A stretch of 64,000 nucleotides of DNA, taken from the sequence record NC_054903.1. One strand, given 5' to 3'. Position numbers and translations under genes: made by a program. Below the pieces are notes generated by a model that saw nothing but the letters and a program-made list of their open reading frames with translations, made no database searches and had not been told where the DNA came from. Of this stretch, positions 2,985 through 62,854 are shown piece after piece. Origin of the DNA: Enterobacteria phage GiZh. Position 1 is the stretch's first letter; the number at the start of each line of letters is the position of its first letter.

Positions 2985-3020
2985 AGATTACTATAACACA
3001 ACACGAGGGACTTGTAAACT
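2985..3020 (-). promoter_or_regulatory. T4 early-type promoter (-35 TTTACA, 17-bp spacer, -10 TATAGT on minus strand)
   Basis: Plus-strand tgtaaa at 3013-3018 and actata at 2990-2995; part of a 54-bp cassette nearly identical to 18248..18301. Confidence 0.5.
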
Positions 3021-5076
3021 ACATTTTGAACTTTTTAGACATTCCGTTAATGTTAACCAAAGAAGCTAAGATTTGAGAAACTTCGTTTTCCTCTTCTTTT
3101 GATTCTTCTACAAGGAATTGATTAAATCCAGCCATTGGACGAACTTCACCAGTTTCCATTAAATGGTCGCCATCATATACTGATTCTTCTAATTGTTCAG
3201 AAGGAGGAACGATTGTACCTTCGATTAGATACTTATTATAAGCAGTTTCTTTCATAAAGTACGTACTTACTTTATTAATCTTCAGTAAAATTCCACGTGG
3301 TAGAATAACTTCAGCTTCTGATGGAAATCCTGATAAATGACCTGGAACGATAACTTTGATTCGCTCAGCTCCTTTAATTACCATACCCACGCTAGTTTCA
3401 GCATCTTCATTAGCATATGTAGAATGACTACCCATATACATCAAATCTTCAGCATCAACAGAACCTTCTCCTTCACCAGAAAATACTGCGCCGGAATCAT
3501 CTAGAGCCATATAGTTTTTACCATGCTCACCGAAGATATTTGGTTTAAGCGATGTTGATACGAAGTTCTTGAAATAGAACATTTTATTTTCAATATTATG
3601 ACGTAAAGTTTTAAAGGTAACTTCTTGTCCACGGTAAAGTGTAGTTCCCGGAGGAAGAACTGATCCTTTGGCGAATGCAGAATCCAGCGTCTCGATGTGT
3701 TTAATAGCTCGTTCCATGTATTCTTCACGGGTAGAATCTGGTTTACCTAAAAGGAACGAGTTCATTTCAACATATGAATCTGCACAATAATCTTCAATTA
3801 CATCAGACTCAGCCTGAGTTAATCCTTTTGGAGTTACTTCAGTACTTGCATATTCATATGCCTGGGCAGCAGATTCATTAATCAATTTATAAATGCCATT
3901 CATGACAAATTGAATAATAGCTGTCTTTTCATCTGGTGTGGCTTTAGAACCTTTAACTAAATCATTGATAATTTTCTTAATAACATCAAAGCTATTAGAA
4001 ATATTAATATCAGCAAGATCGCTTAAAATTTTATCAGTTTTATAATCAAAGAATTCTTTATTCTTTAAATATTCTTGAGAACCTTGATATGTTATATCGC
4101 TCTGCAACTTGATGGATGGATCACGTAAACGTGCATGGGCTAATGCAATATGATTTCGGAAGTTTTCTAGTTCATAATCGCTAGATTTAAAACGAGAAGC
4201 ACTTCTCATACCACCGATAGCTCCTTTGCTGAAGTTTGAACCAATCTGAATAACGCCAGAGTTCATTGGTCCTTCTGCTTTATATACCGGAACTTTAGAT
4301 TCAAACTCTTGATATTTCTTGGCAGCGAAGCTATCACCCTGAAGTGAAGCATCGACAGTAGAATATTGAGCTTGTGCTGCTAATCGACGACTAATTTTAG
4401 TTTTCTGAATAACAGCTTGATCCGTGCGCTTATCATTTTCTAAGGCAATAGAAGCAGCAACAGCAACAGCTTTAGGAACAGCATTACCTGTTTTAACATC
4501 CACATAAACATCACCAACCTTTGATTCAACTTTTGTGAATAACTCAGTTGAAATAGGAGGTACACCTGGAATGTCTTCTAAATTGGCATTTTTACGGTAA
4601 ACCATAATATATGCATACTTTTTATCATAATCCCAGATTTCCTTTAAAAGAACATATCGACCTGCTCCTTTAGTACGTACTAAACGGTCAGCAATAACTT
4701 GCATTTGACGAGCTGCGCCATTTGTTTTACTTTTTAGTACGCGGAATAAGCATGCATCAATTTTATACTGTTTCATTGTTTGAAGAGCAGTATCAAAAAC
4801 GGCATTAATGACACCAATTGGATTTCCACCTAAGTTTTTAAGTTTAACTAATGATAGTTTCTCATTGACACCTATCATTACGATATGCATCATTTTATCG
4901 CCTGGCTTAACGTTTTTATTTGTATCACCACCAGAGGTGTATGTACAAAATCTAAATCCAGGAAGCACACTTTCTTCGCCGGCTTGAATAGCAAAAATTT
5001 GAGGTATTTTATGCTTAGGATTTAAGTTAACAACCGGCGCCGAAGCGCCGTCAAATAATTCTGTAATAAGTTCCAT
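3019..5076 (-). CDS. alt: Alt-like ADP-ribosyltransferase, paralogue A (685 aa)
   Basis: Length close to T4 Alt (682 aa); R-S-E ART motifs (YRGQ, FVSTSL, EAEVILPRG); position between 54 and DNA ligase. Confidence 0.8.
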   Translation of the reverse strand: MELITELFDGASAPVVNLNPKHKIPQIFAIQAGEESVLPGFRFCTYTSGGDTNKNVKPGDKMMHIVMIGVNEKLSLVKLKNLGGNPIGVINAVFDTALQTMKQYKIDACLFRVLKSKTNGAARQMQVIADRLVRTKGAGRYVLLKEIWDYDKKYAYIMVYRKNANLEDIPGVPPISTELFTKVESKVGDVYVDVKTGNAVPKAVAVAASIALENDKRTDQAVIQKTKISRRLAAQAQYSTVDASLQGDSFAAKKYQEFESKVPVYKAEGPMNSGVIQIGSNFSKGAIGGMRSASRFKSSDYELENFRNHIALAHARLRDPSIKLQSDITYQGSQEYLKNKEFFDYKTDKILSDLADINISNSFDVIKKIINDLVKGSKATPDEKTAIIQFVMNGIYKLINESAAQAYEYASTEVTPKGLTQAESDVIEDYCADSYVEMNSFLLGKPDSTREEYMERAIKHIETLDSAFAKGSVLPPGTTLYRGQEVTFKTLRHNIENKMFYFKNFVSTSLKPNIFGEHGKNYMALDDSGAVFSGEGEGSVDAEDLMYMGSHSTYANEDAETSVGMVIKGAERIKVIVPGHLSGFPSEAEVILPRGILLKINKVSTYFMKETAYNKYLIEGTIVPPSEQLEESVYDGDHLMETGEVRPMAGFNQFLVEESKEEENEVSQILASLVNINGMSKKFKM

Positions 5077-5079
5077 GAT

Positions 5080-7176
5080 TTATCCTTGAACGAACTTGTA
5101 AGGCATGTTTGTAATATCTATGCAAGACGCAATAATTCCAAGAGATGATTCTACTTTTTGTTTAACATTTGATGAAACAAATGATGCAAAGTCAACTCTG
5201 TCTTCTATTTCAATATCACCTGTCATTGCAACTACTTCGCCGGTTTCCATTAAATGGTCTCCGTCATAGATTACCGATTCGGTGAGTTCTTCGGTGGTCA
5301 TAACTTCAGCTTGAATGAGTTTTGTATTATTAGACGTGGTTCCGTCATTATTAGAAGCATCAGTTATTTTATTAACTTTGACCATCAATCCGCGCGGTAG
5401 AATAACTTCAGCTTCTGTTGCTATTCCGAGATTTCCTGGATATACAACATTAACTTTATGAGCTCCATCAATTGCCCATCCTATTTGAACTTTAACGTAT
5501 TCAGGATTTTCTTTATACGCTCTTATTTCGTTTGGATTAATAGTTATTCCTTCTTCATTTTTATCAACTGTCAATTCATTACGAGCTTCTGGTTCTAAAA
5601 GACCAATACCAGCATGTGTAATTCCAAAACGTCCAAAAATGATAGGAGTTAAAGAAGTAGATACAAAATTTCTGAAATAGAACACTTTATTTTTAACTAG
5701 TGCTTCGTATATAGGAGCAGTCATGCTTTGAGCACGATAAACTGTAATGCCTTCTGGTATACGGTCACCATTTTCAAAAGCTGAATCTAAGTTATTTATA
5801 GCAGATTCAATTTCTTTTTCACTCATTACATCATATCGTTCTGGATTGTAGCGTCCTAAAAGAAGATTATTGATGTCAGTATATCCTGAACCGCAATACT
5901 CTCTAATGCCACGCTTTTGTGATGGAGTATATTTAGAACCATCACGGGCAATAGTAATATCAATCATTGGACCTGCACCAATTCCAGAGAAACTATAAAT
6001 CATTCTTTTGAGGAATTTAGTTTTTGTCGCGTTCCAGGAATTTTTAGTTATTTCTTCCCAGACTTCATCTGGCTGTCCTTTACGTGTTTTATTATGTTTA
6101 TCAAGCCAATTATCTTTATATTCTTCAAAGAATTGATTAACAGCTGCTGCGTATTTCTCTAAACATTTTATTGAAGTAGTTGGTTCATTTTTAATCGCAT
6201 TAAGAATTACATCTTTAATTTTTTCAGAAACTTCATTAACCTCACTTTTTGAAAAGAATTTATAGTCATAATGAAGTTCATCTGCAGTTCCTTCAGCAAT
6301 AATTTTTGCTGCCTTAGTTTTAGAAGCTAATGAATTAATTCCAAGCTTCATTTCTTCTGCTTCGGGAATTAAAGGAGCCGTAGCAGGTTTATTGAAATTA
6401 GCTGCGGTAGATTCATACTTTTGGAATAATTCACTTTCAAATCTAGAAGATTCTAATGATTGACTTTGTGCAATTGCTCTACGGGAAATTTTAACTTTAA
6501 CGATTACAGCTTGGTCAGAACGTTTATCGTTTTCTTGCGCAATAGATGCAGCAATTGCCTCATTTTTAGTTACTTGAGCTCCAGTATCTTTATTGATATA
6601 AACATCACCAACCTTTGATTCAACTTTAGTAAAGAGCTCGGTACTAATTTCAGGAACTCCTGGAATGTCTTCTAATGATACATTTTTGCGATGTATAAGA
6701 ATATATGCATACTTTTTATCGTAATCCCAGAGTTCCTTAAGAAGGACGTATCTACCACCTGAACGACTACGGATAAGTCTATCAGCAATAAGTTGAATTT
6801 GTCGAGCTTGACCAGCAGTTTTAGACTTAAGAATACGGAGCATACAGGCATCAATTTTATACTGACGCATCGTTTGCATCGCAACAGTAAAAACTGAATT
6901 GATGTAATTAATTGGGCTTGGACCGAGACCTTTTAATTTAGCAATTGAACCTTTAGCAGTTAATGTAAAAGGAACAATATGCATCATTTTATCGCCCATC
7001 TTTAAATCGCGATTAGTATCACCTCCAGATGTATAGGTACACAAACGAAAGCCTGGTTGTTCAATTGCGTCATCAACATGAACTGAAAAAATTTGCGGTA
7101 TTTTCTTCTTTGGATTTAAGTTTGTAATCGGAAGAGTAGTATCTTCGTCAAATAATTCTGTAATGAGTTCCATCAT
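5080..7176 (-). CDS. Alt-like ADP-ribosyltransferase, paralogue B (698 aa)
   Basis: N-terminal 230 aa and C-terminal ART region align with paralogue A (MELITELFD..., YRAQ, FVSTSL, EAEVILPRG); central region divergent; TATAAATA late promoter upstream. Confidence 0.75.
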   Translation of the reverse strand: MMELITELFDEDTTLPITNLNPKKKIPQIFSVHVDDAIEQPGFRLCTYTSGGDTNRDLKMGDKMMHIVPFTLTAKGSIAKLKGLGPSPINYINSVFTVAMQTMRQYKIDACMLRILKSKTAGQARQIQLIADRLIRSRSGGRYVLLKELWDYDKKYAYILIHRKNVSLEDIPGVPEISTELFTKVESKVGDVYINKDTGAQVTKNEAIAASIAQENDKRSDQAVIVKVKISRRAIAQSQSLESSRFESELFQKYESTAANFNKPATAPLIPEAEEMKLGINSLASKTKAAKIIAEGTADELHYDYKFFSKSEVNEVSEKIKDVILNAIKNEPTTSIKCLEKYAAAVNQFFEEYKDNWLDKHNKTRKGQPDEVWEEITKNSWNATKTKFLKRMIYSFSGIGAGPMIDITIARDGSKYTPSQKRGIREYCGSGYTDINNLLLGRYNPERYDVMSEKEIESAINNLDSAFENGDRIPEGITVYRAQSMTAPIYEALVKNKVFYFRNFVSTSLTPIIFGRFGITHAGIGLLEPEARNELTVDKNEEGITINPNEIRAYKENPEYVKVQIGWAIDGAHKVNVVYPGNLGIATEAEVILPRGLMVKVNKITDASNNDGTTSNNTKLIQAEVMTTEELTESVIYDGDHLMETGEVVAMTGDIEIEDRVDFASFVSSNVKQKVESSLGIIASCIDITNMPYKFVQG

Positions 7177-7196
7177 ATCCTCTCTAGTGTTTATTC

Positions 7197-7204
7197 TATT
7201 TATA
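7197..7204 (-). promoter_or_regulatory. Late promoter TATAAATA (minus strand) upstream of Alt paralogue B
   Basis: Plus-strand tatttata at 7197-7204 is the reverse complement of the T4 late promoter consensus, 21 nt upstream of the ATG at 7176. Confidence 0.55.
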
Positions 7205-7209
7205 AAATT

Positions 7210-7227
7210 AAAGGCCCGAAGGCCTTT
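7210..7227 (-). terminator. Hairpin aaaggcc-cgaa-ggccttt (UUCG tetraloop in minus-sense RNA)
   Basis: Perfect 7-bp stem; identical hairpin recurs at 53856..53873. Confidence 0.5.
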
Positions 7228-7414
7228 AATAATCTATTGGTAAGAGAGTACGATATATTTCAAACTTTGGACCTTTTTCATAGGCATCAAATGTTTCTGT
7301 GAATTTATTATAAGCATATGCATCTATAAATTCAATCATAATTTGTGATACAGAAGTAGAAACATCTCCACCTTCTTTTTGAGCCACGACAATTGTTTCT
7401 AAGTAAGCTTTCAT
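7226..7414 (-). CDS. Hypothetical protein (62 aa)
   Basis: Small ORF whose start overlaps the ligase stop; no motif. Confidence 0.4.
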   Translation of the reverse strand: MKAYLETIVVAQKEGGDVSTSVSQIMIEFIDAYAYNKFTETFDAYEKGPKFEIYRTLLPIDY

Positions 7415-8874
7415 AGACCAGTTACCTCATGAAAATCACCAAATACATCCTCGAATGTATTAGCTTTAGTTTTATCTTCACGTAAACGAATCGCAATCGG
7501 AAGAAATAATTTAACGTAATCGGTGCGGCCATCAGATTTTAACCAACCATTGCATTCGCACTCTAGAATTTTTCCAATATAATAATTTTGGTTTTCCATA
7601 ATGCGAGTACGGTCAAGTTCATGCGATTTTACACCGGCTTTATCTTTTAAGCCTGAACCAGCATTTACTTTAATTTTTCCACACTCTGATTCAAGAATAA
7701 ATCCACCCGCTTTAGTAGGGTCTTTACGGTGAGGATAAATTCCTACAATTTTTAAATCAACATCAATTACTTCTTTAAATTTATAAAGATTTTTTGAACG
7801 AGCATTTTCCCATAATCCATCGATATTTTTGAGAATAATACCTTCAAGACCTTGGTCAATATACTTTTTATAAATTACCTTAGCTTCATCTAGGTTATTT
7901 ACTACCTGGTTTTCAATTAAAATTACTTTATCATATCCTGATGTCATTTGTTCTAGTTTAGAAAAACGTACATCATATTTTAAACGAAACGCCGGAAGAC
8001 CGTATATTTCTACCAACGGGACATAATCCCAAACCTGAAACTTCATGCATTGAGCTTCTTTTTCAGAAATGGTTCCTTTTAAGGATTTATTGGCGATTCC
8101 ATTAGAAGTAGTACGAGATTCCGCTACTTCGGCGAATTCTTTAGCTTTACTAATTTCAGGATAAGCATCAAAAAGAAAATCTAGGCCTTCTGGTTCCTTT
8201 TTAACTTGCTCATGGTATACCAATTCGCCATCAATTAACACACCTTCTGGATGAATCTGGCGGGCTTCAGCAGTCATTTTGATTAATTCTTCCTTAAGAA
8301 GATCTAATCCTAGATATTCATTACCAGCTCGTGATAAAAGACGAACATCATCTAATTCATCGCCTCGGACTTCAGCAAAACACCGGGCTCCATCTGCTTT
8401 TAACTGTGCAAAGGCTGGAAATTTGATATTCTTACTAATGCCTTTTTCATCATAAGAACTTGCCAGCATTTGAGGTTGTTCAGGAATTAAACCTGGCCAA
8501 ACTTTGTTTGCAATAGATACTGAAGCACCGCATTCAAGGTCTCGCATCATCACCCGACGCAAAACTTCAACATCATCTTTTTTACCGTCAGCAATATATC
8601 CAGTTAATTCCTCAATTGCCGCATTTCCGGTCAATTTCCGAGTAGCTAACGTGAATTCAATGAAGTCAAGCATATCGGTAAGAGTCAACATTCCAAAACT
8701 CTGGGTAGCAATACTAGGTTTAGGCCATTTCTTGATATAATACTGTAACCCACGAGAATAAGTCAGACGATATACTCGTTTAAGCAATTCATTATCTTTA
8801 TTCTTTTCAAGAATTGCTTGCTTCTGCTTAGTTGAACCAATAGATGCTATTTCGTTCAGAATTTTAAGAATCAT
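7411..8874 (-). CDS. 30: ATP-dependent DNA ligase gp30
   Basis: 487 aa, same as T4 DNA ligase; adenylation motif KADGAR (FAQLKADGARCF). Confidence 0.95.
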   Translation of the reverse strand: MILKILNEIASIGSTKQKQAILEKNKDNELLKRVYRLTYSRGLQYYIKKWPKPSIATQSFGMLTLTDMLDFIEFTLATRKLTGNAAIEELTGYIADGKKDDVEVLRRVMMRDLECGASVSIANKVWPGLIPEQPQMLASSYDEKGISKNIKFPAFAQLKADGARCFAEVRGDELDDVRLLSRAGNEYLGLDLLKEELIKMTAEARQIHPEGVLIDGELVYHEQVKKEPEGLDFLFDAYPEISKAKEFAEVAESRTTSNGIANKSLKGTISEKEAQCMKFQVWDYVPLVEIYGLPAFRLKYDVRFSKLEQMTSGYDKVILIENQVVNNLDEAKVIYKKYIDQGLEGIILKNIDGLWENARSKNLYKFKEVIDVDLKIVGIYPHRKDPTKAGGFILESECGKIKVNAGSGLKDKAGVKSHELDRTRIMENQNYYIGKILECECNGWLKSDGRTDYVKLFLPIAIRLREDKTKANTFEDVFGDFHEVTGL

Positions 8875-9140
8875 TGTTCATCCTTTAGAGTTTGGTTTAC
8901 AGCTCTATTATAAATCAATTCATCATTAAGCTCAGTCAAAGACTTGTGGTACGTGGTTCTAACTTTATTTCCTTTCATCCAGTGCTTGACGTAAATGAAA
9001 CCTTGCTCTACGCATTTTTTAAAAATTCGTTCGTCTTTTTGAGCTCGAAATTCTGGATTGCATCTAAAAAATTGATTTACGTGACCGTAATCACGTGTAG
9101 TATTACCTTCATTTTCATAAATAGTGTGAACGACAAACAT
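8871..9140 (-). CDS. Hypothetical protein (89 aa)
   Basis: ORF overlapping ligase start by 4 nt; no motif. Confidence 0.5.
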   Translation of the reverse strand: MFVVHTIYENEGNTTRDYGHVNQFFRCNPEFRAQKDERIFKKCVEQGFIYVKHWMKGNKVRTTYHKSLTELNDELIYNRAVNQTLKDEQ

Positions 9141-9976
9141 TAGAATGCTCCTTGGAAAATATTATCACCACTAGTAGGTCTATTATACAAATACTCTATG
9201 CCACCGGGTTTAATATAGTTCCATGTCTGAAAAGGATGCGTCTGATATGGATGATATAGATTATAAGGATTAAATCCAGGAGTTCTCCAGGTAGTGTTCC
9301 AAGGAAAAGAATCGTTTTTAATCATCTTCTCAATTACATCTTTTATAACTTTTTCACTATCAAAACTTTCTTTATTTTCCTTCGATGGAAAAAGCTTATT
9401 CTCTACATCATTCCATGTATAAACTCGCTGCGCAGTTTTTGGAATATTGTCACGCTCTCCTCGAGCCATCCAATAAACAGGAACATTTAATATTTCACTT
9501 GCATGATCGCAATGGTGAGCGAGATCGTCAATATAACAAATCACGTTATATTTCTCTTTTGCCTTTTTGAACAACTCTTCTTTTGAAGAATCATGACCAC
9601 ACATCAGTACTTCTGAGAAGGCACCAGGAAAAAGAGCGTTCAAATTAAATTGACGATTCAGCAGAGCGTCAATAGAATCACCCAATGCTGTAACAGCTAC
9701 AAAATTATAATCTTCTTTTAATTTGTTAATTACACATAGAGCATCTTTATATGGAGACAAGTAACGAATAAAATCTGATCGATTATATTTTTCAATTAAC
9801 TTGACACCAAGTTCTTCATCGCAATTAAAGAGCTTACCAGGAGAAATAAATTTTTCGTCCTGAATCATTTTTAAAATATGTTCTAATGGAAGATTATATT
9901 TTTGGGCAAAATAAGGAAGACCTGATTGCCAGCTTAAACATACACCATCAATATCAGTCAAAATAGTAGGCTTCAT
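9140..9976 (-). CDS. HAD-superfamily hydrolase-like protein (278 aa)
   Basis: N-terminal motif ILTDIDGV matches HAD motif I (DxDG[TV]); start overlaps upstream stop. Confidence 0.55.
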   Translation of the reverse strand: MKPTILTDIDGVCLSWQSGLPYFAQKYNLPLEHILKMIQDEKFISPGKLFNCDEELGVKLIEKYNRSDFIRYLSPYKDALCVINKLKEDYNFVAVTALGDSIDALLNRQFNLNALFPGAFSEVLMCGHDSSKEELFKKAKEKYNVICYIDDLAHHCDHASEILNVPVYWMARGERDNIPKTAQRVYTWNDVENKLFPSKENKESFDSEKVIKDVIEKMIKNDSFPWNTTWRTPGFNPYNLYHPYQTHPFQTWNYIKPGGIEYLYNRPTSGDNIFQGAF

Positions 9977-10437
9977 AGAGAGTCTCTTAGTAGGTTTAAC
10001 ACATCAATAAATTCAGCTTCGGTTAGTATTGTATCATCTTTTGTTAGACCACTAGCCATGCTGTGCTTCAAAACTTTTCCTTTTGAGGCTTGTAAGGCAT
10101 CACGAAACCCCTTGTTTTGAATCGCTGCTTCAAAATATGCATTTGTGTATAATTCTTTCCACGCCGGGGAGTATCTTGAAAACGGAACTCCAATCCAGAA
10201 GAGGGTCCCACGGTCCTGAGCTCTAGCATAAGACCTTCCAGCTTGTTGGGCGGCAAGCCCGGATAACCCAAATATACGACGTTGTTGTTCAACATTTTTC
10301 ACCTTACACCCTTGGAGGAATCCTTCAAGACCTCCAAATTGAATACCATCCATAACGAAAGGCCATTGGGCGAAATTACTTAATGCACATGATGGCCACC
10401 TAAAATTGCTTCTAATCTCTAACTCAGACATTTTCAA
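9973..10437 (-). CDS. NADAR / YbiA-like (DUF1768) protein (154 aa)
   Basis: Signature F..WPSCALSNFAQWPFVMDGIQF..LEGFLQGCK resembles YbiA/NADAR motif FSNFxxWP..DG..F.S.EHYFQAQK as I recall it. Confidence 0.55.
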   Translation of the reverse strand: MKMSELEIRSNFRWPSCALSNFAQWPFVMDGIQFGGLEGFLQGCKVKNVEQQRRIFGLSGLAAQQAGRSYARAQDRGTLFWIGVPFSRYSPAWKELYTNAYFEAAIQNKGFRDALQASKGKVLKHSMASGLTKDDTILTEAEFIDVLNLLRDSL

Positions 10438-10630
10438 TGCTTATAATTTCAACATCAGCCCAATGACCATAGCAAGGAAGACGAAATTCAACTGGCCAGT
10501 TAGGGTCCTTTTCTAATATAATAGACTCAACTCGTGGTTCTTCATGTTCATCAGTATATGGATTTTTATCTGTTACTTTATATGTGACCTTAATGTACTG
10601 AATTCCAAAAATCTTATTAATTATATTCAT
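10424..10630 (-). CDS. Hypothetical protein (68 aa)
   Basis: Small ORF in early operon, overlapping neighbours. Confidence 0.45.
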   Translation of the reverse strand: MNIINKIFGIQYIKVTYKVTDKNPYTDEHEEPRVESIILEKDPNWPVEFRLPCYGHWADVEIISIENV

Positions 10631-10824
10631 ACTAATTCCTTTAATCCGTAGATAGGAGATAATTCATCACCCATACGAAGGTCTTCATTTCCATCTACCC
10701 AGGAAACAATATAAGCCTCTTTTATTTGAATACCACTCCATTTAAATGGAGGTAGAACCTTAGAAATTAATCCAGGTATACCAACTCCCTTTAATTCAAC
10801 AGTTTGACCTAAAAAGAATTTCAT
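10627..10824 (-). CDS. Hypothetical protein (65 aa)
   Basis: Small ORF in early operon, ATGA-type overlaps. Confidence 0.45.
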   Translation of the reverse strand: MKFFLGQTVELKGVGIPGLISKVLPPFKWSGIQIKEAYIVSWVDGNEDLRMGDELSPIYGLKELV

Positions 10825-11111
10825 TAGAACCTCATCTGAAAACCGTGCGATTTAACATTACCGCCGCCAATATCAGAAATGTTAATTTCACGCGCAATTG
10901 AAGGGTCAATGTCAATTTCGCGATTGAGTTTAGTGATAGCTAAAGTATCACGCCCATTTACAGTACGAAACTCTAAAGGACAAACCACATCAACGTAGTT
11001 TTTAATCGATTCGCTAGTAGGTTGCAAATGTGCAGGAAGGTCTTTAGGCGACTTTGAGAAAACTACTTCGCAGAAGTTTTTACGGGTATCAAAATAAGTA
11101 GTCATAAACAT
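10824..11111 (-). CDS. Hypothetical protein (95 aa)
   Basis: ORF preceded by GAGGA RBS and hairpin 11129..11142. Confidence 0.5.
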   Translation of the reverse strand: MFMTTYFDTRKNFCEVVFSKSPKDLPAHLQPTSESIKNYVDVVCPLEFRTVNGRDTLAITKLNREIDIDPSIAREINISDIGGGNVKSHGFQMRF

Positions 11112-11152
11112 AGTATTTTCCTCAGTAAGGGGCCGAAGCCCCTCATTTTATT

Positions 11153-11518
11153 TTAAATATCAAATTCGTTAAGAACTACATCAAAGATTGCTTCAAGATG
11201 CTCAGGTTTAGCTCTGTTACTCAGAATATGGCGAATCCAAGTTTTAACCAGAAGCTTGCGATTAACGCCATTCCAGCAAGGATGAGTCCCTAAATCGCGT
11301 TGACGAAAATCATCATCCAAAGCGATTTTGAAGTTGGAACCTTCCATTGTGATTGAAACCGTGATGCCATTTTCAAATCGCATATAAACGTAGTTAGGAG
11401 TCATATACTGTTCAATTTCGCATACTGATCCATTTTGATGTTTCCAAAGGCAAATAGTATCAATAGAACCTGCAATACCATTAGAAACATATTTACGTTC
11501 AAAGTTGATGTAGTTCAT
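11153..11518 (-). CDS. Hypothetical protein (121 aa)
   Basis: ORF in early-gene orientation; no motif. Confidence 0.5.
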   Translation of the reverse strand: MNYINFERKYVSNGIAGSIDTICLWKHQNGSVCEIEQYMTPNYVYMRFENGITVSITMEGSNFKIALDDDFRQRDLGTHPCWNGVNRKLLVKTWIRHILSNRAKPEHLEAIFDVVLNEFDI

Positions 11519-11586
11519 TTTTATTCTCCGAGATGTTTAATTGCGGTACAGGTATATAATATCATATCCTGTACCAAAGTAAACAA

Positions 11587-11919
11587 TTATTTTACTACTT
11601 TCCAGTGCTGCATGTCAAGTTTACCAACTTTTTTCATCTTCTCAATTAAGCGTTCTGCGCGTTGGCGAGCTGTAACATAATGCCATTCACCTAATTCATT
11701 TTGTTCAATTTTTCCAACGATTACTGTGTTCAATTCATAAATCCAACCAGTAAAGAAATTATGAACTTGAATTGTAAAGGTGAAATCTGTTCCCATACCT
11801 TCTGTTGTTTCTACTTCAATAATATCACCTTCAACTGCCATTAAGAACCACATAGTTTCATCATATTTACCGTTGAAGCATTTAGTTTTAACTGTAGCGT
11901 TCAGATTAATCGTTTTCAT
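11587..11919 (-). CDS. Hypothetical protein (110 aa)
   Basis: ORF with early-type promoter (gtaaac at 11971-11976) upstream. Confidence 0.5.
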   Translation of the reverse strand: MKTINLNATVKTKCFNGKYDETMWFLMAVEGDIIEVETTEGMGTDFTFTIQVHNFFTGWIYELNTVIVGKIEQNELGEWHYVTARQRAERLIEKMKKVGKLDMQHWKVVK

Positions 11920-12006
11920 TTTATTCTCCTTTGTTTGTGTAAGATAATACTATCACAAAGGAACCATACTGTAAACAACTTTGTGCAATCTTTGGAAAAT
12001 AAAAAA

Positions 12007-12024
12007 GGACTCCCGAAGGAGTCC
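12007..12024 (-). terminator. Rho-independent terminator (ggactcc-cgaa-ggagtcc then U-run in minus sense)
   Basis: 7-bp perfect stem, UUCG loop in RNA, preceded on plus strand by A6 (U6 after the hairpin on the minus transcript). Confidence 0.65.
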
Positions 12025-12029
12025 TCAAC

Positions 12030-12206
12030 TTATGCTTTCTGCTTACCAAAACGAGAAGCATCATCTCGAAGAACCGCACGTGCTCGGCGCATGATCTTCT
12101 CAACAGTTTGATTGATACGAGAGTTCGACCCACGCTTGTAACCAGCGCGTTTAGAATCACCAACTTTCTTTTCAACTGCTTTCTTTGCTTTAGCTTGTTT
12201 TGCCAT
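12030..12206 (-). CDS. Small highly basic protein (58 aa from MAKQAKAKK)
   Basis: Lys/Arg-rich ORF; listed 72-aa ORF probably starts at internal Met 12206; followed by terminator. Confidence 0.45.
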   Translation of the reverse strand: MAKQAKAKKAVEKKVGDSKRAGYKRGSNSRINQTVEKIMRRARAVLRDDASRFGKQKA

Positions 12207-12451
12207 TATAAATTCTCTTTTAAATGAAAATGCAGGACTTATTGGCATTGCCTGCGCAAGCCCTCAAGGGGAACATAGGTTTTTGGATATTTAACGACCA
12301 GGATAACCATAAACCCGTCATCATTCACATTCAAGAGGTACACCATAAAACTGCCGGGGTCTTAAAACTATAATGATTCGCAAATCATTAATCAGACAGT
12401 TCGATGGCTCCTCGATTTTAGCTCACACTAAGGCAGTGAATCTCCAATAAA

Positions 12452-12700
12452 TTACTTCAGTGTTACCACAAAGTGACGAACTGCTTTTCGTGCAGCAGAA
12501 GCCAGAGGCTTAGCATACTTAAGTTCATCTTTTTCCTGGAGCTCAGCAGCTAATGCAGTTTGAGCAGGATTTAGATGTTTGAAATAACGCAGGATTTCAA
12601 GAGCTTCGGCCTCAACATCAATAGATGCGCCATAGTTTTCGTGACCATTATTCCATGCGTTTCGTTGCAGTTCAAGAGCGTGTTGTAATTGTTTAATCAT
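12452..12700 (-). CDS. rIII: Probable lysis-inhibition accessory protein RIII (82 aa)
   Basis: 82 aa and location between 30.x ORFs and gene 31 match T4 rIII as recalled; not confirmed by alignment. Confidence 0.5.
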   Translation of the reverse strand: MIKQLQHALELQRNAWNNGHENYGASIDVEAEALEILRYFKHLNPAQTALAAELQEKDELKYAKPLASAARKAVRHFVVTLK

Positions 12701-12847
12701 TTAAAAATTCTCGTTAGAGATTAAAACTCGGTAGTCACGTTCTTCTGAATTTCATCTTCTTTCGACAGATCTCTCAGTTGTAGACTACCACATAGAATTG
12801 TTCGGTTAACTTATTATTCCGACACCCAATTCATATTATTATTTATA

Positions 12848-13183
12848 TCACTTATAAAGACACGGAATAGCTTTATAGTGACAGGTAACAAATTTTTGTT
12901 TAATTTCTTTTGGCTGCTTAAGACCCAGAGCTACAAAAGGATGCGGAACGTTTCGAATTTGACCAACTGGAAGAGAAGTCAAATCACCAACTTCACAGAA
13001 ACCTTCAGGAACATCAGGACCAACAGAGTGAATTACACACAGTTCAGGAACTTCACCTTGAACACGTTTACCGATAATAAGTCCTGATTCTGTAACTTCT
13101 TCATCACCGGCTTGTGCAGGTTCAGAAACTAAAATAACATATTCACCGACAGCACGAATTGGTAGCTGTTGTACTTCAGACAT
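12848..13183 (-). CDS. 31: Capsid assembly co-chaperonin gp31 (GroES analogue)
   Basis: 111 aa, same as T4 gp31; [21 protein letters not shown]... recognisable. Confidence 0.9.
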
Positions 13184-13239
13184 CGTTTTTCCTTTTTGTT
13201 AACAGATGAATTAATAATAACAAATAATTCTTAAAGCAT

Positions 13240-13548
13240 TTATTTACCAATAAATTGGAGTAAATGCTCAACTTTCATACCATTAACGGAAATCAATTTG
13301 TCAATAGAAAAACCTCGCCATGCACCAAGCTCAACATCAAATACTGGAATCATGTCAGTAGATTCTTTCCGAGTAGATTCAGTCAATTTACCAGTTTGCA
13401 TGGTTGGCATAAAGTCTGCATCACGAGTACCTTTCATAGTACGAATAGTACCATCAGACTTTTCAAAAACTACGTTTGAAATACCCATGGACAATTTAGT
13501 TTTCAAAATTTCACGAATTGCTACTTTTTGTTCAGTCGTCAATTTCAT
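13240..13548 (-). CDS. Hypothetical protein (102 aa)
   Basis: ORF between cd and 31. Confidence 0.5.
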   Translation of the reverse strand: MKLTTEQKVAIREILKTKLSMGISNVVFEKSDGTIRTMKGTRDADFMPTMQTGKLTESTRKESTDMIPVFDVELGAWRGFSIDKLISVNGMKVEHLLQFIGK

Positions 13549-61631: not shown

Positions 61632-62234
61632 TTATAGATTAAATCCTTCAAAATCAAGAGTATAGATAGTGTATGTTGAATACTTTTTGTACTCATATCT
61701 ATCTGCAATTCTAAATACACTTCCAGCTGGTATCATTACTTCTTGTTCATCTGAAACTAATTCCATATTACGATAACGATGGCTATCCGGAAACTTAAAG
61801 TTTGGATTGTATTCTTTACAGCGTAGAGCTTTTATAGCATACTCCTGGAAATTGAATACCATAGGAGCTTTGAATTCAAAAATAACTTGTGTGTTATACT
61901 CTAAACCGGAAGCAAAATGTAGAGCTATATTTTTATCATATGAAGCTGATACGACTTTATCAAATGTAATAATATCAATTCCTTGATTTAATACTTGCTT
62001 AGTCTCAGCTGGAACACCTCTCCAAAGAGGTTTATCGTTTGGAACCAAACGAGATTTGATTATTTCATTTAACCAAGTATGGTCATCTGGTTTATTAGTA
62101 ATACAATGAATTAAAAGTTCAATTTCAGATAAATTAAACCCTTCAGAAAGTAATTCTTCACGAATAGAAGCACGCACCGATGCATCCATTGATTTTATTT
62201 TAAAATCTTTTAGTTGCATTACTGAGTATTTCAT
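61632..62234 (-). CDS. modA: ADP-ribosyltransferase ModA
   Basis: 200 aa; R-S-EXE motifs (LWRGV, ASYDK..FASG, EQEVMIPAG); adjacent paralogue modB. Confidence 0.8.
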   Translation of the reverse strand: MKYSVMQLKDFKIKSMDASVRASIREELLSEGFNLSEIELLIHCITNKPDDHTWLNEIIKSRLVPNDKPLWRGVPAETKQVLNQGIDIITFDKVVSASYDKNIALHFASGLEYNTQVIFEFKAPMVFNFQEYAIKALRCKEYNPNFKFPDSHRYRNMELVSDEQEVMIPAGSVFRIADRYEYKKYSTYTIYTLDFEGFNL

Positions 62235-62854
62235 TCAACTACCTCAATATCATAAACTTTAAATGTTCCAAATGAATCGTGTAATTTTTCTTTTGAAATA
62301 GAAGTTATTCTATACTTTCCAATTGGAATCATCCATTCTTGTTCATGTACAATCATCATTAAGTTATCAGTTCTTTCTGAATCTAACCCATCAGTATCTT
62401 CATACGTGTACTTAAACTCAGTATTAGGAGAAGAAAGTATAATATCGCTGATATGGTCAGAATAATTAAAAGCTTTATCAGTTTTTAAGCGAAGTACTAT
62501 TTCAGTGAAATATTCATCATAAGAAAAAGAACACGCTGTATGCAAACTAGTAGTAAATGAATCTACCCTGTTCGTTGAAAACACTTCTCCAACTTGCAAA
62601 TCTTTAATAAGTTCTTTTGTCGATTTTGATATACCACGATATAATTGATAAGGCGATTTAGTTAAATGCTTTTTAATGATTTTATTCAACTGTCTGTGAA
62701 GAGCTTCATTCTTTTTGGCTTCCATACATTGCCAAAGAACAGACTGCTCAAAGTCAGTAAATTTTTCACAGACTTTTTTATACATATCATATTGAAAATC
62801 AACGCTTTCAGCTTTTATAGATAACTGTTCAACATCTACAGGATTAATAATCAT
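62231..62854 (-). CDS. modB: ADP-ribosyltransferase ModB
   Basis: 207 aa; LYRGIS, STNR, EQEWMIPIG; start preceded by early-type promoter (gtaaac 62905-62910). Confidence 0.8.
   Translation of the reverse strand: MIINPVDVEQLSIKAESVDFQYDMYKKVCEKFTDFEQSVLWQCMEAKKNEALHRQLNKIIKKHLTKSPYQLYRGISKSTKELIKDLQVGEVFSTNRVDSFTTSLHTACSFSYDEYFTEIVLRLKTDKAFNYSDHISDIILSSPNTEFKYTYEDTDGLDSERTDNLMMIVHEQEWMIPIGKYRITSISKEKLHDSFGTFKVYDIEVVE

What the first reader, a model, noticed from the sequence alone, without database searches (positions are those of the whole stretch)
9140..10437. NADAR/YbiA-like protein next to a HAD-like hydrolase downstream of DNA ligase
ORF 9973..10437 carries the motif ALSNFAQWPFVMDGIQF...LEGFLQGCK, which resembles the YbiA/NADAR (DUF1768) signature as I recall it. 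NADAR proteins process ADP-ribose-derived substrates and can reverse guanine ADP-ribosylation of DNA. The adjacent ORF 9140..9976 begins with the HAD phosphatase motif I (TDIDGV). In a phage that encodes four ADP-ribosyltransferases, this pair could be an ADP-ribose or nucleotide processing module, possibly countering DarT-like defence toxins or handling the phage's own ADP-ribosylation products.
Basis: partly seen in the sequence, partly recalled or inferred. Interest (0 to 1): 0.6.

Follow-up and report, generated by a model that had tools for sequence, protein, structure and literature searches.

The report
Known anti-DarT NADAR plus uncharacterised HAD phosphatase
The two genes are T4 genes 30.3 and 30.2: the first is the already published AdfN enzyme that strips ADP-ribose from phage DNA to defeat the bacterial DarTG1 defence. 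The second is a real but uncharacterised HAD-type phosphatase that published transposon data show is not needed for that job.

Summary
The window is a T4-like phage (Tequatrovirus), and both ORFs lie on the minus strand.

**ORF 9973-10431 (gene 30.3)**
- The true start is the ATG at 10431, not the TTG at 10437.
- It is 150/152 identical to T4 gp30.3.
- My tests agree. The AlphaFold model's three best PDB matches are the three NADAR structures. hhalign against E. coli YbiA gives 85% probability. E36, K43 and H123 are invariant.

**ORF 9140-9976 (gene 30.2)**
- It is a genuine HAD-superfamily phosphatase with all four motifs.
- It has a helical C1 cap, and its closest fold is 5'(3')-deoxyribonucleotidase.
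- It carries a disordered 80-residue tail.

**The "module" idea fails**
- The two genes overlap (ATGA), but so does the whole 30.6-to-30 chain.
- Only 10 of 27 gp30.2 lineages have a 30.3 homologue within 6 kb, whereas 24 have DNA ligase within 1.6 kb.
- In a published T4 transposon screen, 30.2 insertions are neutral on DarTG1 hosts (log2FC -0.12), while 30.3 insertions vanish (-7.25).

**Verdict:** correct recognition of an already-known counter-defence gene, next to an ordinary, still uncharacterised phosphatase. Low novelty.

The parts
9973..10431 (-). Gene 30.3 = adfN. It encodes a 152-aa NADAR-family DNA ADP-ribosylglycohydrolase. The stop codon is 9973-9975.
   Evidence: 150/152 identical to T4 gp30.3. 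Pfam PF08010 at E 4.5e-70. Top-3 PDB fold matches are 2b3w, 8bat and 8bau. hhalign against YbiA gives 85% probability. Function shown for the T4 protein in PMC11825919 and PMC11125620.
10432..10437 (-). Probably not translated.
   Evidence: The T4 annotation starts at the ATG. Homologues P0002 and P0003 are 152 aa. The published E36/K43 numbering fits the ATG start.
10303..10326 (-). Catalytic segment E36-G-F-L-Q-G-C-K43 of AdfN. The E36 codon is 10324-10326 and the K43 codon is 10303-10305.
   Evidence: Invariant in alignment A2. Aligned to SEHYFQAQK of YbiA. E36A and K43A impair T4 AdfN. Codons read directly.
10063..10065 (-). H123 codon, in the last beta-strand (model residues 120-124).
   Evidence: Invariant in A2; strand seen in the model. 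The literature describes a histidine here as the hallmark of phage gp30.3-type NADARs, in place of Glu or Asp. The hhalign register around it is uncertain by a residue or two.
9976..10017 (-). C-terminal helix of AdfN (residues 138-151). It is intact here.
   Evidence: Model helix H138-151. In RB69 a frameshift removes the last 15 residues and makes the phage DarTG1-sensitive. The window gene is full length.
9377..9976 (-). Gene 30.2, residues 1-200: HAD-superfamily phosphatase core with an all-helical C1 cap (residues ~16-86).
   Evidence: AF2 pLDDT is above 90 over residues 1-190. 93 PDB matches at E<=1e-3, and all 50 listed are HAD-fold entries; the best is 5'(3')-deoxyribonucleotidase 2jao/2i7d/3bwv. 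Members hit PF00702, PF06941 and PF13419.
9941..9955 (-). HAD motif I, D8-I-D10-G-V (nucleophile Asp8, general acid/base Asp10).
   Evidence: D8, D10 and G11 are invariant in 34 homologues. Aligned to the DMDGV motif of deoxyribonucleotidase. Codons read.
9524..9691 (-). HAD motifs II-IV: T96 (9689-9691), K132 (9581-9583), D150-D151 (9524-9529).
   Evidence: K132 is invariant; T96, D150 and D151 are at least 90% conserved. They sit at the ends of model strands E91-96, E120-125 and E145-150.
9140..9376 (-). Gene 30.2, residues 201-278 plus stop: aromatic/proline-rich tail predicted to be disordered. It holds a conserved G-I-E-Y-L-x-x-[QR]-P-T motif at 9173-9199.
   Evidence: pLDDT 40-60. The tail is absent or different in many homologues of ~200 aa. 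The motif is seen in a subset of alignment A1 and occurs only once in the window.
7411..8874 (-). Gene 30, ATP-dependent DNA ligase (context). It is the gene most consistently linked to 30.2.
   Evidence: Ligase lies within 1.6 kb of the 30.2 homologue in 24 of 27 lineages.
10424..10630 (-). Gene 30.4 (context). Its last 8 nt overlap the adfN start (ATGTCTGA).
   Evidence: In the T4 Tn-seq it is the only other gene significantly depleted on DarTG1 (log2FC -1.79, padj 0.014). I read this as a likely polar effect on adfN.

Best explanation
These are two adjacent early genes of a T4-like phage that work independently of each other.

**Gene 30.3 (adfN).** It encodes a stand-alone NADAR enzyme. When the host DarT1 toxin ADP-ribosylates guanines in replicating phage DNA, AdfN hydrolyses the guanine-ADP-ribose N-glycosidic bond. 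It uses E36 and K43, with the clade-specific H123. This restores the base, releases ADP-ribose and lets replication continue. The activity is shown experimentally for the T4 protein and is inferred here from 99% identity.

**Gene 30.2.** It encodes a Mg-dependent HAD phosphatase. Asp8 is the nucleophile, Asp10 the acid/base, T96 and K132 bind phosphate, and D150/D151 bind the metal. It has a helical C1 cap of the type that encloses small substrates. Its fold is closest to 5'(3')-deoxyribonucleotidases, so it most likely dephosphorylates a nucleoside monophosphate or a similar small phosphoester. This function is inferred, not shown.

**Relationship.** 30.2 is not part of the anti-DarT mechanism. 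The two genes are neighbours because both sit in the conserved, tightly packed 30.6-30 early gene chain next to DNA ligase.
For: AdfN:
- 150/152 identity to T4 gp30.3 with only conservative changes, L80I and I125M.
- PF08010 at E 4.5e-70.
- hhalign against YbiA gives 85% probability, E 6.3e-6, over 98 columns. YbiA reciprocally hits PF08010 at E 0.004.
- The Foldseek top three are the three NADAR structures.
- E36, K43 and H123 are invariant.
- Published genetics and biochemistry for T4 AdfN and Tn-seq log2FC -7.25 on DarTG1.

gp30.2:
- Motif residues are invariant.
- The core model is high-confidence.
- 93 PDB matches at E<=0.001; all 50 listed are HAD-fold entries, headed by cdN/mdN deoxyribonucleotidases.
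- Many phage proteins named '5' nucleotidase' appear in BFVD matches.
- Relatives found at E~1e-20 pass Pfam gathering scores for NT5C (P0280) and HAD Hydrolase (P0270).

Independence:
- Every junction from 30.6 to 30 overlaps by 1-8 nt.
- 30.3 lies within 6 kb in only 10 of 27 gp30.2 lineages.
- 8 of 9 divergent 30.3 loci lack a 30.2 homologue.
- In Vibrio phage QD01 the two genes are ~97 kb apart.
- T4 30.2 insertions are neutral on K-12 (72/72 TA sites hit), on DarTG1 (log2FC -0.12, p 0.61) and in minimal medium (-0.10).
Against: - No enzymatic data exist for gp30.2. The window protein itself reaches no Pfam or NCBIfam threshold, so the substrate class rests on fold similarity and weak profile hits.
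- At whole-genome level both genes are present in nearly the same set of T4-like phages: 1,509 versus 1,438 records, with matching genus counts. Co-retention therefore cannot be excluded as meaningful, although shared ancestry explains it.
- AdfN needs an unidentified T-even factor for full activity.
- The Tn-seq is a single library comparison in one host, with one DarTG1 allele expressed from a plasmid.
- The tight linkage of 30.2 to DNA ligase is unexplained.
Confidence: 0.85

Rival explanations
1. One reading: 30.3 and 30.2 form a two-enzyme module. NADAR releases ADP-ribose from DNA (or handles the phage's own ADP-ribosylation products) and the HAD phosphatase processes the product. Alternatively, gp30.2 is the unknown T-even factor that potentiates AdfN.
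For: - A 4-nt ATGA overlap suggests translational coupling.
- When both genes are in one locus, 30.3 is always upstream on the same strand.
- Genome-level distributions are almost the same.
- AdfN is fully active only in T-even infection, and the authors postulate an unknown phage factor.
- ADP-ribosylglycohydrolase (ARG) genes are coupled to phosphatases, including HAD 5'-nucleotidases, in some bacterial systems (PMC9503650).
Against: - T4 30.2 transposon mutants are not depleted on DarTG1 (71 sites, log2FC -0.12, padj 1), while 30.3 mutants are lost.
- AdfN alone de-ADP-ribosylates DNA in vitro.
- Overlaps link the whole 30.6-30 chain, not just this pair.
- Adjacency is lost in 17 of 27 gp30.2 lineages and in 8 of 9 divergent 30.3 loci.
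Confidence: 0.04
2. gp30.2 works with the neighbouring DNA ligase as a DNA-end or ligation-related phosphatase, for example a PNKP-like 3'-phosphatase that prepares nicks.
For: - Ligase lies within 1.6 kb of the 30.2 homologue in 24 of 27 lineages. This includes lineages where the order is inverted, with ligase upstream (L096, L100-L106).
- There are weak hits to HAD_PNKP (Pfam E 0.17) and to the PHROG 415 polynucleotide kinase family (E 0.0025).
- Phage polynucleotide kinase/phosphatases appear among BFVD fold matches.
Against: - The model has a ~70-residue helical C1 cap. From general knowledge of HAD enzymes, such caps go with small-molecule substrates, whereas PNKP-type phosphatases that act on DNA ends are capless.
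- The best fold and profile matches are nucleotidases, not PNKP.
- T4 already encodes PseT, a 5'-kinase/3'-phosphatase (listed).
- T4-like genomes are strongly syntenic, so linkage alone is weak evidence.
- 30.2 is non-essential while the ligase is essential.
Confidence: 0.07
3. The 30.3 product acts mainly on small molecules rather than on DNA. Candidates are soluble ADP-ribose derivatives used as immune signals, or riboflavin intermediates as for YbiA.
For: This was proposed on contextual grounds for phage NADARs before the experiments were done (PMC9503650). YbiA-type NADARs are N-glycosidases of riboflavin intermediates.
Against: The T4 protein removes ADP-ribose from guanine in DNA in vitro. 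It is necessary and sufficient for DarTG1 resistance, with catalytic mutants impaired.
Confidence: 0.03

Closest known systems
T4 gp30.3 = AdfN (anti-DarT factor NADAR; Johannesman et al., Nat Commun 2025, PMC11825919; in vitro activity in Toxins 2024, PMC11125620)
   Same: It is the orthologue. Identity is 150/152, it occupies the same position between 30.4 and 30.2, it has the same E36/K43/H123, and the C-terminal helix is intact.
   Different: Two conservative substitutions (L80I, I125M). Nothing suggests a functional difference.
DarG1-type NADAR antitoxins and E. coli YbiA (Pfam PF08719; PDB 8bat, 8bau, 2b3w)
   Same: Same fold and the same Glu/Lys catalytic pair. These are the top three structural matches, and hhalign gives 85% probability.
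   Different: There is no direct PF08719 hit. It has His in the last strand where YbiA-type enzymes have Glu and DarG1-type have Asp. It lacks the N-terminal extension of DarG1. It is not encoded next to a DarT toxin. It cannot replace DarG1 in uninfected cells.
5'(3')-deoxyribonucleotidases cdN/mdN (Pfam PF06941 NT5C; PDB 2jao, 2i7d, 1mh9, 3bwv)
   Same: HAD core plus a helical cap inserted after motif I. Motif I is DxDGV. An aromatic residue sits eight positions after the nucleophile (W16 aligned to the Phe of ...DGVLADFE). These are the best fold matches, with rmsd 4-5 A and TM about 0.65-0.70 on the target.
   Different: Only 14-18% identity. The window protein does not reach the NT5C gathering score, and only some relatives do. 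It has an extra 80-residue disordered tail. The substrate is unknown.
T4 PseT / PNKP-type HAD 3'-phosphatases
   Same: HAD catalytic motifs. Both are phage-encoded and found in a DNA-metabolism context next to a ligase.
   Different: Sequence matches are only weak and non-significant. gp30.2 has a C1 cap and no kinase domain.

Membership tests
NADAR superfamily (YbiA fold, PF08719) | Direct match to the Pfam NADAR model PF08719 | tested here: not met
   Pfam gives only PF08010 Phage_30_3 (E 4.5e-70). There is no PF08719 hit at E<=1. PF08010 is the phage branch described in the literature as NADAR.
NADAR superfamily (YbiA fold, PF08719) | Remote sequence homology to bona fide NADAR proteins | tested here: met
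   hhalign of A2 against E. coli YbiA gives probability 85%, E 6.3e-6, over 98 columns. YbiA is the best PDB sequence hit, E 0.057. YbiA hits PF08719 at 1.5e-38 and PF08010 at 0.0041.
NADAR superfamily (YbiA fold, PF08719) | [quoted passage not shown] | tested here: met
   The AF2 model (pLDDT 79, pTM 0.78) has that layout. The Foldseek PDB top three are 2b3w YbiA (E 1.8e-4), 8bat and 8bau, and nothing else is above noise.
NADAR superfamily (YbiA fold, PF08719) | Catalytic Glu and Lys in the E-x(6)-K segment, plus a charged or His residue in the last strand | tested here: met
   E36, K43 and H123 are invariant in A2. E36 and K43 align with the YbiA E/K. His is the phage-clade variant according to PMC11125620. 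The exact register of H123 against the YbiA Glu is uncertain.
NADAR superfamily (YbiA fold, PF08719) | Hydrolysis of guanine-linked ADP-ribose on DNA | not testable with these tools
   Shown for the 99%-identical T4 protein in two papers.
AdfN (T4 gene 30.3 orthologue) | Orthology: near-identity, conserved position, full length including the C-terminal helix | tested here: met
   150/152 identity. The gene order 30.4-30.3-30.2-30.1-30 is as in T4. Helix 138-151 is present.
AdfN (T4 gene 30.3 orthologue) | Required for growth on DarTG1 hosts | not testable with these tools
   For T4 itself, the deletion is sensitive and Tn-seq gives log2FC -7.25.
HAD superfamily | Four catalytic motifs: DxD, S/T, K/R, DD | tested here: met
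   D8, D10 and K132 are invariant. T96, D150 and D151 are at least 90% conserved in 34 homologues.
HAD superfamily | Rossmannoid core fold | tested here: met
   pLDDT is above 90 over the core. There are 93 PDB matches at E<=0.001, and all 50 listed are HAD-fold entries.
HAD superfamily | Match to a curated HAD model above threshold | tested here: inconclusive
   The window protein has none. 9 of 34 homologues hit PF00702 below or near threshold. Relative P0270 (profile E 1.1e-20) passes PF00702 at 32.4 bits against a cut-off of 26.4.
NT5C 5'(3')-deoxyribonucleotidase family (PF06941) | Match to PF06941 above the gathering score | tested here: not met
   The window protein has no hit. 5 of 34 homologues and the L101 homologue hit over the full length but below 24.8 bits. 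One distant relative, P0280, passes at 26.6 bits. I treat gp30.2 as a neighbouring, unmodelled subfamily.
NT5C 5'(3')-deoxyribonucleotidase family (PF06941) | Closest structural neighbours, with a C1 helical cap | tested here: met
   2jao, 2i7d and 3bwv are top-ranked with the lowest rmsd. Cap helices lie between strand 1 and strand 2.
NT5C 5'(3')-deoxyribonucleotidase family (PF06941) | dNMP phosphatase activity | not testable with these tools
   I found no publication on gp30.2.
   Published T4 Tn-seq Data S6, read here: 30.2 has log2FC -0.12 and padj 1; 30.3 has -7.25 and padj 0.
   30.3 lies within 6 kb in 10 of 27 gp30.2 lineages, against ligase in 24 of 27. 8 of 9 divergent 30.3 loci lack 30.2.

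The most novel reading that the evidence does not exclude
gp30.2 is not a housekeeping nucleotidase. It could be a counter-defence or DNA-metabolism enzyme whose real partner is the DNA ligase, or a host system not yet tested. For example, it might dephosphorylate a nucleotide-derived immune signal or toxic nucleotide analogue. It might also act redundantly as a helper of AdfN against DarT variants other than the one screened. Its disordered tail, with the conserved GIEYLxx[QR]PT motif, would serve as a docking peptide.
Probability: 0.1. Interest if true: 0.5.

Novelty: already known. Interest (0 to 1): 0.15.

Why it matters
The core of the finding, a phage NADAR that reverses DNA ADP-ribosylation by DarT, was a real discovery, but it was published in 2024-2025 for the orthologous T4 gene. 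This window adds another intact allele and nothing more.

The remaining open item is small. gp30.2 heads a large family (about 1,500 clusters at 50% identity) of phage HAD phosphatases with no assigned substrate. It is persistently linked to DNA ligase in T4-like phages.

Knowing that gp30.2 is not the missing AdfN potentiator narrows the search for that factor slightly.

Tried and rejected
- **Single-sequence PDB searches.** Direct searches of both proteins gave only noise-level hits. Profiles and structure prediction were needed.
- **NCBIfam and PADLOC.** Both gave nothing for either protein.
- **Promoter/terminator scan of 7000-13500.** It found no more sites than shuffled sequence, so it says nothing about a dedicated transcription unit for the pair.
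- **afdb50 fold search.** The library was not available. I used BFVD instead.
- **Third homology search, with the A1 profile.** It returned the same T4-like phage family and no annotated cellular relatives. The exhaustive representative search was more useful.
- **gp30.2 as the unknown AdfN potentiating factor.** Considered, then rejected on the Tn-seq data.
- **gp30.2 as a PNKP-like DNA 3'-phosphatase.** Considered, then ranked low because of the C1 cap.
- **DarTG2 table.** I did not retrieve the 30.2 row of Data S7. The paper's text states that tk.4 was the single hit.
Full report
**What is there**

The window is a Tequatrovirus (T4-like phage). The 1.9 kb around the finding is 98% identical to many Escherichia and Shigella T4-like phages.

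All genes in this region lie on the minus strand, in the T4 order alt, 30 (DNA ligase), 30.1, 30.2, 30.3, 30.4 ... 30.9, rIII, 31, cd.
- ORF 9140-9976 is gene 30.2. It encodes 278 aa and is 271/278 identical to T4 gp30.2.
- ORF 9973-10437 is gene 30.3. T4 is annotated from the ATG at 10431 (152 aa), and homologues are 152 aa. With this numbering the published catalytic residues fall on E36 and K43.
- From the ATG start, the 30.3 product is 150/152 identical to T4 gp30.3. The two differences, L80I and I125M, are conservative.

The genes are transcriptionally upstream of the ligase, not downstream.

The phage does encode four ADP-ribosyltransferases: two tandem Alt paralogues, ModA and ModB.

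**Gene 30.3 is the known NADAR enzyme AdfN**

Pfam files the protein under PF08010 (Phage_30_3, E 4.5e-70) and gives no hit to the NADAR model PF08719.
- A profile of 11 homologues finds E. coli YbiA as the best PDB sequence (E 0.057). It aligns LSNFAxWPFVMDG...EGFLQGxK with FSNFAAWPIKVDG...SEHYFQAQK.
- Profile comparison with YbiA gives 85% probability, E 6.3e-6, over 98 columns.
- YbiA is a PF08719 member at 1.5e-38 and weakly hits PF08010 in return.
- An AlphaFold model (pLDDT 79, pTM 0.78) has as its three best PDB matches exactly the three NADAR structures. These are YbiA 2b3w (E 1.8e-4), Geobacter lovleyi NADAR 8bat and Phytophthora NADAR 8bau. Everything below them is noise.
- E36, K43 and H123 are invariant across homologues down to 40% identity.

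The literature settles the function.
- Toxins 2024 (PMC11125620) names gp30.3 proteins as the phage branch of NADARs, marked by a His in the last strand. It shows that the T4 protein removes ADP-ribose from guanine but not thymine in DNA.
- Nat Commun 2025 (PMC11825919) renames the gene adfN. Deleting it makes T4 and T2 sensitive to DarTG1. Expressing it rescues RB69, whose own copy is truncated by a frameshift. E36A and K43A mutants are impaired, and the purified protein de-ADP-ribosylates DNA.
- A 2025 preprint confirms this by transposon sequencing.

The window allele is full length, including the C-terminal helix lost in RB69. I therefore predict that this phage resists DarTG1. This part of the finding is correct and already known.

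**Gene 30.2 is a real HAD phosphatase of unknown substrate**

The protein itself reaches no curated threshold. The Pfam HAD_PNKP hit is at E 0.17, and NCBIfam gives nothing. The evidence for a HAD phosphatase comes from several other directions.
- **Motifs.** Among 34 homologues, D8, D10, G11 and K132 are invariant, and T96, D150 and D151 are nearly so. These are the four HAD motifs, including the second Asp typical of phosphatases.
- **Profile hits.** A profile finds mouse 5'(3')-deoxyribonucleotidase as the best PDB sequence (E 0.015). It aligns DvDGvlvkWqsGL with NMDGVLADFESGL (the crystallised D12N variant).
- **Homologue hits.** Individual homologues hit PF00702 (9/34), PF06941 NT5C (5/34) and PF13419 (4/34).
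- **Model.** The AlphaFold model is confident over residues 1-190 (pLDDT above 90). It shows a Rossmann-like core with about 70 residues of helices inserted after motif I, which is a C1 cap.
- **Fold matches.** Foldseek finds 93 PDB matches at E<=0.001. All 50 listed are HAD-fold entries, led by cytosolic and mitochondrial deoxyribonucleotidases with the lowest rmsd. Against viral models it finds many phage proteins named 5'-nucleotidase.
- **Family size.** An exhaustive profile search finds 1,543 cluster representatives, mostly stand-alone proteins of 190-220 aa. Of ten sampled, one passes the NT5C gathering score and one passes the HAD Hydrolase score.

I conclude that gp30.2 belongs to the HAD superfamily, in an unmodelled subfamily next to NT5C. 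Because C1-capped HADs generally act on small molecules (general knowledge of the superfamily), a nucleoside-monophosphate phosphatase is the most likely activity. This is an inference.

Residues 201-278 are predicted to be disordered and are rich in aromatic residues and proline. This tail is missing or different in many homologues. I found no publication on gp30.2.

**Are the two genes a module?**

Three lines of evidence say no.
- **Gene overlaps.** The 30.3 stop and the 30.2 start overlap (ATGA, 9973-9976). However, every junction from 30.6 to 30 overlaps by 1-8 nt, so this is how the whole early gene chain is built.
- **Linkage from the 30.2 side.** Among 80 viral contigs centred on a 30.2 homologue, 35 have a 30.3 homologue within 6 kb. 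When collapsed to lineages at 70% identity, this is 10 of 27. DNA ligase lies within 1.6 kb in 24 of 27, including lineages where the gene order is inverted.
- **Linkage from the 30.3 side.** Among contigs centred on divergent 30.3 homologues, 8 of 9 have no 30.2 homologue within 6 kb. In Vibrio phage QD01 the two genes are about 97 kb apart.
- **Genome-level co-occurrence.** Both genes are nearly universal in T4-like phages, with 1,509 and 1,438 records and matching genus counts. Shared descent explains this, so it does not show coupling.
- **Experiment.** I read the supplementary tables of the HIDEN-SEQ preprint (10.1101/2025.11.20.689424). On E. coli K-12, T4 30.2 tolerates insertions at 72 of 72 TA sites.
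- **Experiment, DarTG1 host.** Only two genes are significant. These are 30.3 (mean 261.0 to 0.7, log2FC -7.25, padj 0) and 30.4 (log2FC -1.79, padj 0.014). 30.2 is unchanged (271.5 to 249.8, log2FC -0.12, p 0.61).
- **Experiment, other conditions.** 30.2 is also neutral in minimal medium. The text reports a single hit, tk.4, for DarTG2.

The 30.4 effect is most simply polar, since its 3' end overlaps the adfN start. That is my inference.

AdfN also works alone in vitro. The authors of the AdfN paper postulate an unknown T-even factor needed for full activity in cells. The Tn-seq result makes gp30.2 an unlikely candidate, barring redundancy.

**Comparison with what is known, and verdict**

- Gene 30.3 is an orthologue of a characterised protein and a member of the NADAR superfamily. 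Membership rests on fold, remote homology and catalytic residues, though not on the Pfam NADAR model itself.
- Gene 30.2 is a member of the HAD superfamily. It works most like, but is not demonstrably a member of, the NT5C deoxyribonucleotidases.
The proposed two-gene module is not supported.
- Novelty is nil for the NADAR. For the phosphatase it is limited to "uncharacterised member of a known superfamily". Interest is low.
- The one loose end worth a note is the persistent linkage of the phosphatase to DNA ligase.

Noticed in passing
window 10068-10295 (-): The out-of-frame ORF inside 30.3 is annotated in T4 as 30.3' and has its own Pfam family, DUF2883 (E 9.6e-52). It diverges much faster than 30.3: about 61% identity where 30.3 is 85%. 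It loses its ATG in several phages and has an in-frame stop in L011. It looks like an annotation artefact rather than a gene.
   Followed up: partly
window 3019-5076 (-) and 5080-7176 (-): There are two tandem full-length Alt-like ADP-ribosyltransferases, 41% identical and both PF03496. In related contigs the second copy is sometimes broken into pieces (L001, L004). I did not test whether the small T4 ORFs alt.-1 and alt.-2 are remnants of such a copy.
   Followed up: partly
window 9173-9199 (-), within the gp30.2 tail 9143-9376: A short conserved motif, G-I-E-Y-L-x-x-[QR]-P-T, sits near the end of the otherwise variable, disordered C-terminal tail of gp30.2. It recurs in a subset of homologues from different genera. 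It may be a docking peptide for an unknown partner.
   Followed up: partly
window 7411-9976 (-); loci L027-L106: The gp30.2-type HAD gene stays within 1.6 kb of DNA ligase in 24 of 27 lineages. This includes metagenomic phages where ligase lies upstream instead of downstream (L096, L100-L106). The linkage is far more stable than that to 30.3 and is unexplained.
   Followed up: partly
window 10424-10630 (-): Gene 30.4 overlaps the adfN start by 8 nt (ATGTCTGA). In the published T4 Tn-seq it is the only other gene depleted on DarTG1 (log2FC -1.79, padj 0.014). This is probably polarity on adfN, but a small helper role is not excluded.
   Followed up: no
L101 5564-6004 (+), next to the 30.2 homologue at 6001-6597: In a distant metagenomic phage the HAD gene is preceded, with an overlapping start, by a 146-aa ORF with an acidic EExxE-type helix. 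To my eye it resembles MazG-like NTP pyrophosphatases, but it has no Pfam hit. UvsY follows downstream.
   Followed up: partly
window 61632-62234 (-) and 62231-62854 (-): ModA and ModB get no Pfam hit at E<=0.01. They are recognised only through PHROG 832 (RNA polymerase ADP-ribosylase), where they match the C-terminal end of a 1,480-position profile.
   Followed up: no
gene 30.3 product; PHROG 652: The PHROG 652 profile is 296 positions long and gp30.3 matches only positions 126-272, so some family members carry an N-terminal extension of about 125 residues. Separately, the Toxins 2024 methods list the 'T4 phage NADAR (gp30.3)' construct as residues 1-208, which does not fit the 152-aa T4 protein.
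   Followed up: no
window 12005-12026 (-) and 11589-11618 (-): A strong terminator-like hairpin (9 bp stem, T-run) lies at the annotated position of gene 30.9 in T4 (30.9 was not delimited in the window). A near-consensus sigma-70-like promoter (TTGACA-18-TAAAAT) lies upstream of 30.7. Together they could bound the 30.7-30 early transcription unit. Overall, the scan was not enriched over shuffled sequence.
   Followed up: no
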